Shown here in pieces: positions 33,103 through 54,891 of a stretch of DNA of 64,000 nt; the first letter of the stretch is position 1; the number at the start of each line of letters is the position of its first letter. This stretch comes from Octopus sinensis (Eukaryota). The notes under the pieces were generated by a model that was not told the origin of the DNA, did no database searches, and worked only from the letters and a program-made list of their open reading frames with translations. A program made the position numbers and the translations under genes. The stretch lies in NCBI RefSeq assembly GCF_006345805.1, contig NC_042997.1:161386001-161450000 (forward strand). The letters run 5' to 3'.

Positions 33103-33556
33103 CTTAAATAAATGAAAAATATATATTAAATTTAGAAATTTTCAAAACATTAACATTAAATTATATAAAGTGAAGTTGTAGAAGTCTTAATTTTAATGAA
33201 ATTTCTAAAAAAAAGATAATTATAAAAACTGTTACTGAAAATATGATGAAAATAAAAAACAGTTTTGATTGGATAGCCATTCTAAAGTTAACAATTAATT
33301 TCATTGTCTTAATGAAATTAACAGATCTTAATTTAATAATGAAGAATAATAATGCTTTAAATCATATTACGTAAGTGCAATGCAGCCAGAAATTTATTCA
33401 ATTTTCATAATGAAAAATTTAAGAGAAGTATATTTTATGTACATATATATTGCAGCTTGTAAACAATAATATCATTGGTTATAGGTTTTTAGTTAGCTAG
33501 TAATTGGTTTACTAAATGTATGATAGCAAATGTAACAATGGAGTATTTGTAACTTA

Positions 33557-33991
33557 ATGTGGAACAAATACAGTAAGGGACTTTGTCAAAAAAAAAGAAC
33601 CAGTTATTTGGTTTTCTCACAAAGCTGCATTAAATCAAGAATTGAATTAAACGAAAGAGAAGCTAAATCTGTTATGGAGTATCTCGATAATTTAATCAAA
33701 GAAAATAATACTATCATGGCAAAATTAGTGGAAGAAAACCTTCTCAAGCGAGAAGAATTGGTGAAATCTTTGTACAAAGATGTTCAAGATACTTCACCTG
33801 CCGGAGATAATGGTGAAATGGCACAGAAGCGAAAACATACTCTTCAAGAAACTGTAGAAACTTTTTTTCCTGGCGAAGGTACTGTCGACCATGTCTTGAA
33901 AGTTGTAGCAGAGCGGGTACATAATCCTTTACCTTGTATTAAAGTAAATCCATTCTCGTGTCCAGCAGCAGTAGCAGAAGCGGATGAATGA
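33557..33991 (+). CDS. Unidentified coding-like ORF or terminal exon (144 aa; helical N-half LNEREAKSVMEYLDNLIKENNTIMAKLVEENLLKREELVKSL)
   Basis: Non-repetitive, protein-like composition, higher GC and CpG than the flanks; possible acceptor ttttctcacaaag at 33624; family not recognised. Confidence 0.4.
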   Translation: MWNKYSKGLCQKKRTSYLVFSQSCIKSRIELNEREAKSVMEYLDNLIKENNTIMAKLVEENLLKREELVKSLYKDVQDTSPAGDNGEMAQKRKHTLQETVETFFPGEGTVDHVLKVVAERVHNPLPCIKVNPFSCPAAVAEADE

Positions 33992-34460
33992 AACCTTCCT
34001 TCTCTTTCATCACACTGATTTCGCGTTTGATAATGTGCTTTGTGTTTGTTCCTTTTCAAATATGATTTGTGGAAACCAATCTTCCTTGGAGAAGCCTCAT
34101 GAGTGAATTTGTTCAAAATATTGTTGTGACGGTGCCATGTAAAAGAACTCACGCCAGTGTCACATAGAAGCACCTGGTACACTCTCCAAAATGGTTGGCA
34201 TTAAGAAGGGCATCCATCTGTAAAAACCAGACAAATGGAACCAGGGCACCCCTCCAGCTGGCCAATTCATGTGAAACTGTCCACCCGATGATATTTTCCT
34301 CAAACACTCTTTCTAATTCTCATATAACAAACACATAATCTCTTCCATCTCAGACTTACAGCAGATATTATAATATTAATCAGTCAGTTACTCTTTGCTG
34401 AAGGTCTATTAGTACAAGGCCACCCTTATTTCACTACCATCTTCTCATCTGTACTTACAG

Positions 34461-34633
34461 ATACTACCCGACAACGGAGAGAGAACGAAGTTGATGCCCG
34501 TGACTACCATTTTGTTGCATCTCAAGAGCAAATGGAGCGAGACATTCAAAACCATCTTTTCATTGAAGCTGGCCAGTACAATGACAATCTTTACGGAACT
34601 AGTGTTGCGTCAGTGAAGGAAGTTGCAGAAAAG
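34461..34633 (+). CDS. dlg1: Discs-large (DLG/MAGUK) guanylate-kinase-domain exon, isolated fragment ([57 protein letters not shown])
   Basis: ttacag/gtaggc, 173 nt, phase 1-0, open; recognisably the DLG GK motif [28 protein letters not shown]; absent from the ORF track. Confidence 0.85.
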
Positions 34634-35135
34634 GTAGGCGCCCACTCTCCACATTTATTTACACTTTTCCTTCTATGATGCGTATTTCTGCTCAACCCTA
34701 TTCTTCCCAACTGGATGTTTGCCGATATACCCCAGTTACCATATTTTATTATAAGATGGGTATGATTAAAATGTTGTGCCTATGTTTTTAAATTTAATAA
34801 GACCATGCTTAATCTTATGAAAATAGTCACTGTATAGACTCCTTCAAAGGTTTAGATCCATGAGTCAGATGACCAAAATATCTCCAGTCATTGTTGAACA
34901 GTGGACAGACCTTAGGACTACACATAACAAAAAGACTTGAGCTCTGTTGACTAAAAATCATAAACGTCTGATGTTTAGATTGGAGATACTACCTGTCTTT
35001 AATACTTGGGAAGATGGTTGAACAACTTGAAATTTAAGTATTAGTTACCTACACATACACATACACAAACACATCTTCAGCTTGATTAAAATGAAACTAT
35101 GTTTAATCTTCTGTTTTAAAATGTTCTTTGTTCAG

Positions 35136-35245
35136 GGCAAACACTGCATTTTGGACGTCAGTGGTAACGCAATCAAGCGGCTACAAGTAGCAGGATTATA
35201 TCCAATCGCAGTTTTCATCAAACCCAAATCCGTGGAATCTATAAT
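35136..35245 (+). CDS. dlg1: Next DLG GK exon ([36 protein letters not shown])
   Basis: tttgttcag/gtaagt, 110 nt, phase 0-2, in frame with 34461..34633; [17 protein letters not shown] is diagnostic of the DLG1-4 family. Confidence 0.85.
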
Positions 35246-35959
35246 GTAAGTTGAACTTCTTTTTTTTTTTTCCTTTGAGAATTAGAAGTCCTTCTTTGTG
35301 CATAGTAGGATAGGGCTCAAGCCAATATGATTGAGAAGTAAATTTTTTAACGTCATGTGCAAAATTATATAATTTTGTACGTTTTTTTTTTCTTGGTCTA
35401 TATTATCTTCTGTGTTTTTCATTTTAAAAGACAACAGAGTGTGGTATGAGGGGGATTTGGCTGTTAGTTGTATTGGCTTGAGTGATCATCTAAAGAATTC
35501 GTTGTTAGCTTCTTTAGTTATTATATTACCCCCAGTAGTGGCCTTGATACTTTATTACAATTTCATTCACATCTAGAAAATATTATAATTCATACACATC
35601 TAGAATATATTATAGAAATCATCCCCATACTAATTAGCACTTAATTTTATCAACCCTGGAAGGCTGAAATTAAAAGTTAACCTCATAGGGACTTGAATTC
35701 AGAACATGAAAGATTATATCTAAATGCTGCAAGGCATATAGTCCAACTGATTCTTCTGGTTACCCATCAGTGATATGCAGTGGTATTTTCTCATGGAAGT
35801 GAGTCAGAGATGTAGTTTTAATTTTCAGCTACTACAACTTATGGTTTAAAAATATTTGTTTTAATCATTTACACTTGGTATTTGAACATAAAAAAGATCA
35901 AAATTTCAAATAGGGTAAATAAAACTTTTACCAAACTTTCATTCAAATTTTAATGATTC

Positions 35960-36380
35960 AGTATTTAGACTACTCTTTAGCTTCATTTGACTATTATTAG
36001 GCTACATCTTAGTTACATTTTAGATAGATTTAGACTACATTTTGACAACACTTACATTCAGTCTGCACTTTGTCTATGTTGGACTATAATTTTGTAACAC
36101 TAGTTACACTTAAGTTTCTCTTAAGCTACATTTTGATTTCATTTTGGTAATATGGGTTCTAGTCTTTGGTTTTCACTTAAGCTACACTTAGACTACACTT
36201 GGTCAAACTCATGATACTCTTTGGCTATGCTTTGGGTGTATATAATTATAATTTGGTTACATTTGAATTACTCTTAAACTCATTTTTTTGGCAATATTTT
36301 GGCTACATGTAGCCTACTTTTTAGCTACACTTAAGCTTCTTTTATGTTACACTTAGGCTACACTTTTGTTACACTTAGTA
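35960..36380. repeat. Degenerate minisatellite with an ~11-bp unit (about GGCTACACTTA)
   Basis: Recurring gctacacttag / gactacattttg / gttacacttaa variants. Confidence 0.65.
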
Positions 36381-36412
36381 ACAACTAGAAGTTTTACAGT
36401 CAACAAAATGCA

Positions 36413-37659
36413 TCAGGTCATCCCATAAGTTCTGTTTGATTTTACCTTTTTTAAAATTGAATGAAATTTAATAGTATTTTAGAATGTCTAATGGAATCAA
36501 AAATTATTTTTATGCATTTGTGTACATTTAAACTAATTAAATATTATTTTACAGAATAATAGAATTAAAATTTCTTTGATTAAAACCCTTTCAAACATGG
36601 ATGTATCCAAAGAGCATTTGAGATACATAATGCTTTATGAGTACAAAAAAGGAAACTCTGCAGCCAAAGCGACTTGAAACATACACTTAGTTTATGGGAA
36701 AGAATGCTTGAATGAAAGAACTTTCAGAAGATGGCTTGCAAAATTCAGAAGTGGAGATTTCAGCCTTGAAGATGAAGATAGAACAGGATGTCCAGTTGAG
36801 TTTGATGATAAGCTCCTTGAGGCATTAATTGAAGAAAATCCTGCATTATCACTTGCAGAATTGGCAATAAAGCTTAGTTCAAACCATACAACTGTTCATT
36901 GTCATCTTCAACAACTTGGAAAGGTTCCTAAATTTGGAAAATTGATGCCTCATGAATTGTCTGAAAGTAACCACAAATCCTAAGTTCCCATCTGCTCTTC
37001 TCTCCATTCTCGCGAACTCACTTCACTCTTTTTGGAAAGACTTGTGACGAAAAATGAATTTTCTACCGAAATGTTAAACGTCGTAAACAGTGGTTTGGTA
37101 AAAGGGAAAAAGTTCAACCACAACCAAGAAGGGAACTTCATGGAAAAAGCTTCTTCTCTCTATCTGGTGGATTACAAAGGAGTAATTCACTTTGAATTGT
37201 TACCACCTAATGCAACTATCAATGCTCAAGTCTACACCTACAATTAGAGTGTTTGAACCATGATTTGAAGAAAAAAGACCCGCTTTAGTGAATTGAAAAT
37301 GAGGGATGTTTCATCAGGACAATGCGCAACCCCACACTGCAAAGATCACATCATAGAAGATCGAAGAGCTTGGTTGGGAAAAAATTCTTCATCCACCTTA
37401 TTCTCCAAACCTTGGTCCTTCAGACTATCAATTGTTTTGTATTGCAAGCCAGGAGGAGGTCAAAACTGACATTTCAGAGTTCTTTGCTTTGAAACCAAAA
37501 GAATTTTACATAGATGGGATTAAAAAACTTGTAAATAGATGGAAGGAAGTCATAGATAATCTGGGAAAGTACATTGATGATTAAATTTCAATTAAATATA
37601 ACATTTGATCACTTGCTTTCTTTATTCAGAATTCGGACAGAACTTATGGGATGACCTGA
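36413..37659 (+). mobile_element. Mariner element, family 1, near full length; transposase disrupted
   Basis: TIRs TCAGGTCATCCCATAAGTTCTG...CAGAACTTATGGGATGACCTGA followed by TA; transposase from ATG 36597 (MDVSKEHLRYIMLYEYKKG*, KFRSGDFSLEDEDRTGCP, PHELSE, HQDNAQPH) with stops and frameshifts. Confidence 0.95.
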
Positions 37660-37870
37660 TAATAAAACCTTGCTTCACAGAATCTTGAAAAATCTCTGTA
37701 AAAACGGTAACTTAAAAAATTTGATGTATATAAGATATAATCAGCATCTATCATCTGAAGCAAACTAGAAAACCAGACATTTCTCAAATTCACCAGAAAT
37801 CAGTATTTCACTTTACAAAATGTCATTGTCAAGTACAATAATAGGATATATTTCTTTTTGAAATACTTAC

Positions 37871-52297: not shown

Positions 52298-52807
52298 AGT
52301 GGCATTCTGATAAAATATTTGAGAAAAGTTATGTTAATATATCTTGTTTGTTGAAAATCCATATTTCTTGCAACTGAAGATAGTACTGTACTTAAATTTA
52401 TGTAATGCTTGCATTGTTCAATTAAATGATCATATTGCATTAATACTTCACATCTTGTTACTTATTTTGATTTTATATATATATATATATTATATATACA
52501 TATACGTATTTTAATTGAAACCATGTTATTGTTTTGGAACCCTTAAATGGTTGAGGATCTTTTGTGATTTCAGTTCTAGTTGAATAAATGCTGATTTCTG
52601 TCAGCATGGAACCATGGGTTCCAGGAAGCTGGCTTTGCATTAAGAAACATTGTTTATTCACTTACCCTTTACTGAGAACTCATTGCTGCAGTTCATTACT
52701 AACATGTGTGTGTGTGTGTGTGTGTGTGCACGTGCACATGTACTTGAACATATGTGTGTTTGAATTTTGCAAACATTTAAGTAACTAAATTTCAACAGTT
52801 GACTTAC

Positions 52808-53122
52808 CATTCGTTGCTGCCCTGTGTAAAGTAACAGGCAATGAAGCATCTCCTGCTCCAAATTCATTATGACATCGTACTCGAAAAGAATAATTCTGGT
52901 CTGGCAGGAGCTGACCAACTTGATTCCTTGTAGTAAGCAAATTGGAAATAAGGGTGACCCATTCTGACGAAGGAGGCGTTTTCATTTCTATGCTGTAACT
53001 AATTGGCTTTGTCATAGCAATTTCTGTAGTTGTTGGCACTGATGCTGGTTTCCACACTAACCATGCAACATCAGAGCCATCATCTGTTAACTCAGGTGGA
53101 TCAATAGGCATTCGAGGAGTAA
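52808..53122 (-). CDS. FN3 exon, copy B (identical protein to 54008..54322; tandem duplicate or assembly artefact)
   Basis: Same splice sites and translation as copy A, offset 1200 bp. Confidence 0.6.
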
Positions 53123-53473
53123 CTGCAATATAGGTTGAACCAAACAGAAATTAAATTACATTGTATTGACATTTATTCAACACATAAATATCAGATATTA
53201 ATGGAGATATATTGATGCAATTCACATAATATACTGACAGAAAAAATGGTGTGAAGAGAAGTAAATATATAAAAACAAGAAAAAAAAAGCTAAACATTAT
53301 TCAAGTCTTGCTTCTCTATAATGTGCATTATAATGAGGTTAGTGTTGTTAATTTTAGGTTTAACTTATTTTCTGTTGATTATCTCATATCACATTGTTAA
53401 TTATAGATTTCCAAAGGATTATTTTTTTCTGTTTTCTTACACAATTTACTGTCAAAATACATATGTGCATTTA

Positions 53474-53538
<65 letters not shown>

Positions 53539-53656
53539 CATACTCGCAATTGTGCATTTATGTATGTGTATATATATATATATATATATGTATAAAACTG
53601 CATACCTATAGACACATGTACATACACATATATAAACGTGTTTGTGTGTGTATGTA

Positions 53657-53699
<43 letters not shown>

Positions 53700-54007
53700 C
53701 ATATACGTATTTTAATTGAAACCATGTTATTGTTTTGGAACCCTTAAATGGTTGAGGATCTTTTGTGATTTCAGTTCTAGTTGAATAAATGCTGATTTCT
53801 GTCAGCATGGAACCATGGGTTCCAGGAAGCTGGCTTTGCATTAAGAAACATTGTTTATTCACTTACCCTTTACTGAGAACTCATTGCTGCAGTTCATTAC
53901 TAACATGTGTGTGTGTGTGTGTGTGTGTGCACGTGCACGTGTACTTGAACATATGTGTGTTTGAATTTTGCAAACATTAAGTAACTAAATTTCAACAGTT
54001 GACTTAC

Positions 54008-54322
54008 CATTCGTTGCTGCCCTGTGTAAAGTAACAGGCAATGAAGCATCTCCTGCTCCAAATTCATTATGACATCGTACTCGAAAAGAATAATTCTGGT
54101 CTGGCAGGAGCTGACCAACTTGATTCCTTGTAGTAAGCAAATTGGAAATAAGGGTGACCCATTCTGACGAAGGAGGCGTTTTCATTTCTATGCTGTAACT
54201 AATTGGCTTTGTCATAGCAATTTCTGTAGTTGTTGGCACTGATGCTGGTTTCCACACTAACCATGCAACATCAGAGCCATCATCTGTTAACTCAGGTGGA
54301 TCAATAGGCATTCGAGGAGTAA
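54008..54322 (-). CDS. FN3 exon, copy A (TPRMPIDPPELTDDGSDVAWLVWKPA...YSFRVRCHNEFGAGDASLPVTLHRAATN)
   Basis: ttgcag/gtaagt, 315 nt, phase 1-1; FN3 motifs LVWKP, YSIE, W, YSFRVRCHNEFG. Confidence 0.9.
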
Positions 54323-54673
54323 CTGCAATATAGGTTGAACCAAACAGAAATTAAATTACATTGTATTGACATTTATTCAACACATAAATATCAGATATTA
54401 ATGGAGATATATTGATGCAATTCACATAATATACTGACAGAAAAAATGGTGTGAAGAGAAGTAAATATATAAAAACAAGAAAAAAAAAGCTAAACATTAT
54501 TCAAGTCTTGCTTCTCTATAATGTGCATTATAATGAGGTTAGTGTTGTTAATTTTAGGTTTAACTTATTTTCTGTTGATTATCTCATATCACATTGTTAA
54601 TTATAGATTTCCAAAGGATTATTTTTTTCTGTTTTCTTACACAATTTACTGTCAAAATACATATGTGCATTTA

Positions 54674-54711
<38 letters not shown>

Positions 54712-54849
54712 CACACACACACACACACACATACTCGCAATTGTGCATTTATGTATGTGTATATATATATATATATATATATGTATAAAACTGCATACCT
54801 ATAGACACATGTACATACACATATATAAACGTGTTTGTGTGTGTATGTA

Positions 54850-54891
<42 letters not shown>

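What the first reader, a model, noticed from the sequence alone, without database searches (positions are those of the whole stretch)
34461..35245. Two intact Discs-large GK-domain exons sitting antisense inside an intron of the muscle kinase gene
Seen: two + strand exons (173 and 110 nt) with clean AG/GT sites, compatible phase and no stops, encoding [18 protein letters not shown]...[31 protein letters not shown]...KPKSVESI. Established: this is the guanylate-kinase domain of DLG/PSD-95 MAGUKs, and the breakpoints fall where I recall them in vertebrate DLG genes. I could not find the flanking DLG exons (RPxIILGP...FGSCVP upstream; NKR..EEQA/IWVP downstream) anywhere in the window. Inference: this is a recent DNA-level partial duplication of dlg (the intron is retained, so not a retrocopy), a truly interleaved antisense gene with very long introns, or a misplaced contig. 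The exons retain many CpGs, which appears more than in the host exons and would fit recent arrival.
Basis: partly seen in the sequence, partly recalled or inferred. Interest (0 to 1): 0.75.

Follow-up and report, generated by a model that had tools for sequence, protein, structure and literature searches.

The report
Three-gene RNA patchwork inside an intron
The two Discs-large exons are one part of a young 1.7-kb insertion in an intron of a muscle kinase gene, made of pieces of three unrelated genes from three other chromosomes, one piece with its introns spliced out; it was likely written in a single event by a reverse transcriptase in a germ cell and is probably inert.

Summary
The two exons are real DLG guanylate-kinase exons, antisense in a host intron. 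They are neither an interleaved gene nor a misassembly: an intact dlg lies on C19, and the window holds a 99.2% copy of 1,184 nt of it. That copy is the right-hand part of a 1,673-nt insertion with a 5-nt target duplication; two runs show the empty site, four show insert junctions. Every base maps to three donors: 233 nt of a C5 ORF (CCDC63/ODAD1-like by Atlas features, sense), 263 nt of a C2 mRNA (inverted, with two exact exon-exon joins across 84-kb and 157-kb introns), and unspliced dlg (sense). A 6-nt microhomology at the C2/dlg junction exists only in the spliced mRNA. There is no poly(A) or terminal repeat, and no retroelement was added. Best reading: a reverse-transcribed, multi-template insertion at a staggered break in the germ line (0.6); rival: end-joining capture of cDNA plus DNA pieces (0.3). 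The retained intron therefore does not prove DNA-level duplication. Multi-template insertions are known; earlier scan notes report small-RNA template-jump chimeras on other DNA of this genome. No sign of function.

The parts
33626..35298 (.). Whole insertion, 1,673 nt, absent from the empty-site allele
   Evidence: Single contigs of runs X5 and X6 join 33625 to 35299, five letters fit either side
33626..33630 (+). Left copy of the 5-nt target duplication TGCAT; its last 3 letters are also the first 3 of the C5 piece
33628..33860 (+). Piece 1: 233 nt from inside a single-exon 529-aa coiled-coil ORF on C5 (117805772-117805540), sense, 100% identical; ORF resembles CCDC63/ODAD1 by Atlas features (0.97), no Pfam hit
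33861..34024 (-). Piece 2a: first 164 nt of exon B of an unidentified C2 gene (C2:82789559-82789396); blunt junction (no microhomology) to piece 1
34025..34119 (-). Piece 2b: whole 95-nt exon A of the C2 gene (C2:82946476-82946382), joined to exon B at exact GT/AG sites across a 156,822-nt intron; a 75-nt cassette exon is skipped
34120..34123 (-). Piece 2c: last 4 nt of exon Z of the C2 gene (donor GT at C2:83030224), joined to exon A across an 83,748-nt intron
34118..34123 (.). 6-nt microhomology ATATTG between spliced C2 mRNA (antisense) and dlg intron; only 2 nt against C2 genomic DNA
   Evidence: chance of 6 or more about 0.002
34118..35301 (+). Piece 3: unspliced dlg fragment (intron part, exon, 502-nt intron, exon, 56 nt of intron), 99.24% to C19:33233810-33232633
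34461..34633 (+). DLG GK exon copy 1 (173 nt); one G>A at a CpG (34524) changes Arg to Gln against the parent
35136..35245 (+). DLG GK exon copy 2 (110 nt), identical to the parent
35299..35303 (+). Right copy of the 5-nt target duplication TGCAT; its first 3 letters are also the last 3 of the dlg piece
33103..37870 (-). Host intron of an Ig/Fn3/kinase (twitchin/obscurin-type) gene, spliced out whole in the major contig of run X14

Best explanation
The dlg exons belong to a single young insertion of three gene pieces, one of them spliced, that was likely written by a reverse transcriptase at a staggered DNA break in a germ cell and is probably inert. Shown: insert limits, 5-nt target duplication, three donors with intact source loci, two exon-exon joins in the C2 piece, overlaps of 3, 0, 6 and 3 nt at the four junctions, no poly(A) and no added retroelement sequence. 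Inferred: the break left 5-nt 3' overhangs; the right end paired with 3 letters of unspliced dlg pre-mRNA and primed cDNA leftwards for 1,184 nt; that strand annealed through 6 letters to an oppositely running cDNA of the C2 mRNA (twin-priming-like joint); the C5 piece was added by an end-to-end jump without homology and closed on the left end through 3 letters. One of the pieces (C2 in a one-arm model, C5 in a two-arm model) must have been copied from an antisense DNA or cDNA strand. The enzyme is likely a non-LTR retrotransposon RT; its family is unknown.
For: Exact GT/AG exon joins across 156,822 and 83,748 nt, matched letter for letter by spliced contigs of run X9 and present in DNA-type run X3. 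The 6-nt overlap exists only after splicing; chance about 0.002. No second, intermediate copy of the C2 or C5 piece in the assembly. Empty site in X5 and X6 gives a 5-nt duplication; a blunt break would mimic that in about 0.008 of random trials. The outer overlaps lie where target-primed reverse transcription puts them: start of the duplication at the 3' end of the sense dlg piece, end of the duplication at the 5' end of the sense C5 piece (interpretation from my knowledge of TPRT). Contigs of all three donor transcripts occur in one library, X9. C5 resembles CCDC63/ODAD1, a family with a sperm role in mouse (PMC4632774, search listing only). L1 experiments give insertions from two transcripts, opposite orientation being attributed to annealing of two RT-extended ends (PMC11702581, passages); R2 RT jumps to RNA or single-stranded DNA ends (PMC4117753, passages).
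Against: Only the C2 piece proves an RNA step: C5 is single-exon and the dlg piece keeps its introns, so both could be DNA. No A-to-G (editing-type) change marks any piece. No poly(A), no TTTT/A site, no retroelement sequence names an enzyme. The 3-nt outer overlaps are each expected by chance in about 7% of junctions. The order + / - / + cannot come from RNA templates alone in either priming model. The tissue of X9 is not on record, so 'germ cell' rests on heritability and an Atlas look-alike without a Pfam hit. No long read was available; three junctions are bridged with only 30 letters on one side.
Confidence: 0.6

Rival explanations
1. End-joining capture: free double-stranded pieces (a C2 cDNA plus DNA or cDNA pieces of C5 and dlg) were ligated or copied into a staggered break by NHEJ/polymerase-theta-type repair, in random orientation.
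For: Overlaps of 3, 0, 6, 3 nt, mixed orientation and no poly(A) fit end joining. Yeast breaks capture two to four fragments of mixed origin (PMC11372161, passages); class 2 TSIPs are RNA-derived patches with NHEJ features (PMC5110952). The dlg piece keeps its introns.
Against: A clean 5-nt duplication without loss of target bases; both outer pieces are sense with overlaps in TPRT polarity; all three donors are transcribed genes seen in one library, whereas random DNA pieces of a 2.7-Gb genome would rarely be exonic (inference). It still needs a reverse transcriptase for the C2 piece.
Confidence: 0.3
2. The chimera was assembled first (RNA ligation, or an earlier insertion at a now lost or unassembled locus) and then copied here as one unit.
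For: RNA ligation before retrotransposition is described for U6/L1 (cited in PMC11702581 and PMC13174262, passages).
Against: The C2 piece is antisense to its spliced form, which RNA ligation cannot give; no intermediate copy in the assembly; X5 and X6 contigs run from each donor exon on into its own flanks; at most two substitutions and one microsatellite indel are not seen in a donor allele.
Confidence: 0.06
3. A DNA transposon or LTR element captured and carried the pieces (Pack-TIR, Helitron, LTR-mediated retroposition).
For: A mariner with 31-nt TIRs lies 1.1 kb away in the same intron; LTR-mediated retrocopies combine several parental genes through short overlaps (PMC5131818, passages).
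Against: All 1,673 nt are accounted for by the three donors; the insert ends form no inverted repeat beyond the palindromic target letters; the flanks join directly in the empty allele; the mariner lies wholly outside the insert.
Confidence: 0.02
4. Assembly artefact (chimeric read or RNA-assisted fill).
For: Near-100% identity to three loci; X1 may be the source sample; the two window-only dlg substitutions appear in no contig.
Against: The same junctions occur in X2 and X3 (another study) and the C2/dlg joint in X14 (a third study); contig depth over donor pieces is about twice the flank depth in X1 and X2 and equal to it in X5 and X6 (depth is only a rough guide).
Confidence: 0.01
5. A functional, interleaved antisense dlg gene with very long introns.
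For: Both exons keep splice sites and frame.
Against: The parent on C19 has PDZ, SH3 and all GK exons around its own copy; spliced RNA contigs carry the parent allele and flanking exons; intactness is explained by youth.
Confidence: 0.01

Closest known systems
Templated sequence insertion polymorphisms, class 1 and class 2 (Onozawa and Aplan, PMC5110952; parts 1-3 of 4 read)
   Same: Heritable insertion templated from distant loci, donors intact, spliced-cDNA and intronic templates, microhomology at junctions
   Different: Has a 5-nt duplication like class 1 but no poly(A), signal or TTTT/A site; has microhomology like class 2 but a duplication instead of a deletion; three donors in one insert
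Complex L1-mediated insertions from two or more transcripts (PMC11702581, passages; PMC13174262, passages)
   Same: Several RNA templates in one target site; opposite orientation joined through microhomology; target duplication
   Different: Those keep poly(A), an L1 endonuclease site and mostly 12-18-nt duplications, and come from cultured human cells or contain L1 sequence; here none of these, and one piece is unspliced
Tripartite chimeric retrogenes by double template jump (PMC2104539, abstract and outline)
   Same: Three transcript copies fused directly, flanked by a direct repeat
   Different: Those include LINE/SINE parts; here all three donors are host genes with coding exons, and the middle piece is inverted
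LTR-mediated chimeric retrocopies (PMC5131818, passages)
   Same: Partial mRNA copies, several parental genes, overlaps of about 6 nt, no poly(A)
   Different: No LTR element flanks this insert
Multi-fragment capture at double-strand breaks in yeast (PMC11372161, passages)
   Same: Two to four pieces from different sources at one break
   Different: There the pieces are mtDNA, Ty cDNA or nuclear DNA; spliced mtDNA pieces were not seen

Membership tests
DLG/PSD-95 MAGUK GK domain (sequence origin) | Sequence closest to DLG GK; parent gene with PDZ, SH3, GK exons | tested here: met
Functional overlapping dlg gene | Remaining exons collinear on C1 and transcript with the copy's alleles | tested here: not met
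   Parent complete on C19; RNA contigs carry the parent letter at 34524 (contigs drop rare variants)
TSIP class 1 / L1-type processed insertion | Target-site duplication of 5 nt or more | tested here: met
   5 nt
TSIP class 1 / L1-type processed insertion | Non-templated poly(A) tail behind a poly(A) signal | tested here: not met
   Both ends are donor sequence up to the target
TSIP class 1 / L1-type processed insertion | TTTT/A target site | tested here: not met
   Target context
TSIP class 2 | Microhomology or other NHEJ marks at junctions | tested here: met
   3, 0, 6, 3 nt
TSIP class 2 | No target-site duplication | tested here: not met
   5-nt duplication; chance mimicry about 0.008
TSIP (either class) | Polymorphic within one species | tested here: inconclusive
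   Carriers X1, X2, X3, X14; empty X5, X6, whose flanks differ from the window by about 0.4% and 0.9% and whose organism labels overlap with a carrier's
Tripartite LINE template-jump chimera | Three transcript copies fused directly within a direct repeat | tested here: inconclusive
   Three donors and a repeat are shown; RNA origin is shown for one of three
Tripartite LINE template-jump chimera | LINE or SINE 3' part; all parts in one orientation | tested here: not met
   No added retroelement part; middle piece inverted. The orientation rule is from PMC13174262
LTR-mediated retrocopy | Flanked by LTR retrotransposon sequence | tested here: not met
   Flanks join in the empty allele
Pack-TIR / Helitron capture | TIRs, or Helitron TC...CTRR ends without duplication (Helitron ends recalled, from no call) | tested here: not met
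   Insert ends
RT-dependent insertion | Dependence on a named reverse transcriptase | not testable with these tools
   No enzyme sequence in the insert
CCDC63/ODAD1 (C5 donor) | PF21773 ODAD1_CC domain | tested here: inconclusive
   No Pfam hit at E 1; Atlas features 0.97 with 10 of 10 family-bearing hits agreeing, family on 23-63% of cluster members

The most novel reading that the evidence does not exclude
This genome has a recurrent poly(A)-independent route by which a retroelement RT stitches abundant sperm-line mRNAs and nascent, intron-containing pre-mRNA from different chromosomes into heritable cassettes with intact exons and no retroelement sequence: RNA-level exon shuffling that is scored as DNA-level duplication by the usual 'intron retained' rule and missed by retrocopy screens.
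Probability: 0.2. Interest if true: 0.75.

Novelty: new variant of a known kind. Interest (0 to 1): 0.45.

Why it matters
It is a base-resolved natural, inherited example, with an empty allele, of a multi-template insertion of the kind mostly described from human cell experiments and small-RNA/LINE chimeras. It shows that an intron-containing gene fragment can arrive in the same event as a spliced mRNA copy, so a retained intron is not proof of a DNA-only origin. It delivers splice-competent exons of three genes to a new place, the raw material of exon shuffling, and is a presence/absence marker between close lineages. As one locus with no sign of expression or function it does not change a field; it would if such inserts prove common.

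Tried and rejected
Flanks 33104-33627 and 35302-36450 have no near-identical copy in the assembly (in one search only 40 of 524 candidates were scored); they are target DNA. CpG content as an age marker: rejected, inherited from the parent exons. Old high-copy repeat at about 34150-34290: inherited from the dlg intron, 70-89% to 43 other copies in the 40 fetched 10-kb stretches and the window, none with an RT-like motif within 700 nt upstream; the recurring 34215-35611 'joint' (22 letters a side) comes from this repeat and was dropped, as was one X3 row in table 5c. Identity of the C2 gene: no Pfam hit, Atlas scores 0.78 only. Exon Z was not in the 17 C2 stretches fetched and was found by pattern. 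No RNA holder is on record. X14 shows no contig of the C5 or C2 mRNA and X9 none of the host exon: lack of cover, not used as evidence. X9 holds intronic dlg contigs at depth 6.1 and 3.5: could be pre-mRNA or DNA, not counted. X8 shows neither insert junction nor empty-site joint; X9 is silent on carrier status. No editing-type A-to-G difference found. Exonisation of the insert: not seen; X14's main host contig skips it, and its depth-2.8 contig over the C2/dlg joint may be unspliced RNA or DNA. Literature searches listed no mollusc case of this build; the library lacks most subscription papers and no supplements were read, so tables of Onozawa 2015 or PMC11702581 may hold closer cases. No earlier scan note lies near this place.

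Full report
Observation. Both match Pfam Guanylate_kin, and exon 1 is closest to Disks large chains in the PDB. The host is a minus-strand Ig/Fn3/kinase gene; an RNA-like contig of run X14 splices it from 37871 to 33102, so the block sits antisense in a 4,768-nt intron. The window is G000:C1:161386001-161450000 in a 2.72-Gb assembly; earlier scan notes call the genome octopus-type (not tested here).

The parent. A second, 99% copy lies on C19. Against 200 kb of C19 the shared block is 34118-35301, 1,184 nt, with three substitutions and one 6-nt microsatellite indel. The C19 locus has PDZ, SH3, the upstream GK exon and the two downstream exons in order. RNA contigs of X9 and X14 splice the two exons to each other and carry the parent's G at 34524; X14's loose ends continue into the neighbouring C19 exons. 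So dlg is complete on C19 and the window holds a fragment. The CpG argument falls: the parent exons are as CpG-rich.

The block is larger. Searching the 1 kb to the left found three more near-exact donors. 33628-33860 is 100% identical to part of a single-exon 529-aa ORF on C5, in sense; it has no Pfam hit, the Atlas places it with CCDC63/ODAD1-like clusters at 0.97, and it has no other copy beyond two 36-37-nt hits outside this piece. 33861-34119 matches two places on C2, 157 kb apart; on the minus strand these are exons with AG and GT ends, joined exactly. Run X9 holds the same spliced join, and its contig matches the window four letters further, to 34123. Those four letters are the end of a third exon, found 83,748 nt upstream with a GT donor. 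X9 also shows a 75-nt cassette exon between A and B that the insert lacks. The C2 piece is therefore a copy of one mRNA isoform with two splice junctions, and no other spliced copy exists in the assembly. It overlaps the start of the dlg piece by 6 nt; against C2 genomic DNA the overlap is 2 nt.

Real and young. Of 24 runs listed I laid 8. Four show insert junctions: X1 (possibly the source), X2 and X3 (one other study), X14 (a third study). Two, X5 and X6, have one contig joining 33625 to 35299, with five letters fitting either side: a 1,673-nt insert and a 5-nt duplication. Two, X8 and X9, are uninformative. Contig depth over the donor pieces is about double the flanks in X1 (94-107 against 52-54; C5/C2 joint 53) and X2 (88-90 against 43-48; joint 40), noisy in X3, and single in X5 and X6; this suggests X1 and X2 are homozygous, with the caveat that depth is not copy number. 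Two of the four substitutions against the assembly's donors are donor alleles seen in X5 (33868, 34786); the other two (34524, 34987) appear in no contig and may be new, rare or consensus errors. At 33713 the insert has the letter of its own lineage's C5 gene, not that of X5 and X6. X5 and X6 differ from the window's flanks by about 0.4% and 0.9% (counted from table 8), and the organism labels conflict, so 'polymorphic' versus 'fixed in one lineage' is open.

Mechanism. The 233 + 263 + 1,184 nt of donors cover the insert entirely: no poly(A), no TIR, no added retroelement. Overlaps are 3 nt (target/C5), 0 (C5/C2), 6 (C2/dlg) and 3 (dlg/target). In 200,000 random junctions each, 6 or more occurred in 0.002 and 3 or more in about 0.07; an apparent 5-nt duplication from a blunt break in 0.008. 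The outer overlaps sit where target-primed reverse transcription would put them, with dlg as first template and C5 as last (inferred). The inverted middle piece joined by the longest overlap recalls twin priming and the annealing of two RT-extended ends described for L1 (PMC11702581 and PMC13174262, passages); the blunt joint recalls end-to-end jumping, which R2 RT performs on RNA or single-stranded DNA (PMC4117753, passages). Neither a one-arm nor a two-arm model works with sense RNA templates alone, and only the C2 piece proves an RNA step, so capture of free pieces by end joining remains a serious rival (PMC11372161, passages; PMC5110952). All three donor transcripts occur in one library (X9), and a heritable event must be germ-line or early embryonic; a sperm link rests on the Atlas look-alike and a search listing (PMC4632774). 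Earlier scan notes report template-jump chimeras of small RNAs elsewhere in this genome; I did not check them, and they are leads only.

Function. None seen. The main host contig of X14 skips the insert; spliced dlg contigs are parental. Intact exons reflect youth. The C2 piece lies on the host's strand and could in principle be exonised; no contig shows it.

Comparison and verdict. It works like known multi-template insertions (TSIPs, complex L1 insertions, tripartite chimeras in PMC2104539, abstract; LTR-mediated chimeras in PMC5131818, passages) but fails a defining feature of each: no poly(A) or L1 site, a duplication where class 2 has none, no LINE, SINE or LTR part. Seven literature searches listed no mollusc case; coverage is partial and no supplements were read. 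Verdict: real, young, three-donor insertion with a proven spliced-RNA component; new variant of a known kind; interest 0.45.

Noticed in passing
window 52474-53699 and 53675-54890: Tandem 1.2-kb duplication (98.6%, 3 mismatches) that doubles a host Fn3 exon with identical translation (52785-53150, 53985-54350); recent exon duplication or assembly slip.
   Followed up: partly
window 36412-37660: Decayed mariner (Mos1-type HTH) with 31-nt TIRs, 90% complementary, in the same host intron.
   Followed up: partly
G000:C5:117804287-117805876 (L024): Single-exon 529-aa CCDC63/ODAD1-like ORF with no Pfam hit; may itself be an old retrogene (untested).
   Followed up: partly
G000:C2:82789396-83030295 (L025, L026, L086, L087): Unidentified gene with tiny exons spread over at least 240 kb, a frame-preserving 75-nt cassette exon and an open frame without known relatives.
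   Followed up: partly
window 33535, run X8: A contig of X8 has a 255+-letter loose end before 33535, suggesting a different insertion in that lineage 90 nt from this target.
   Followed up: no
window 35960-36380: Degenerate 11-nt tandem repeats between the insert and the mariner; present in the empty allele's flank as far as laid.
   Followed up: no
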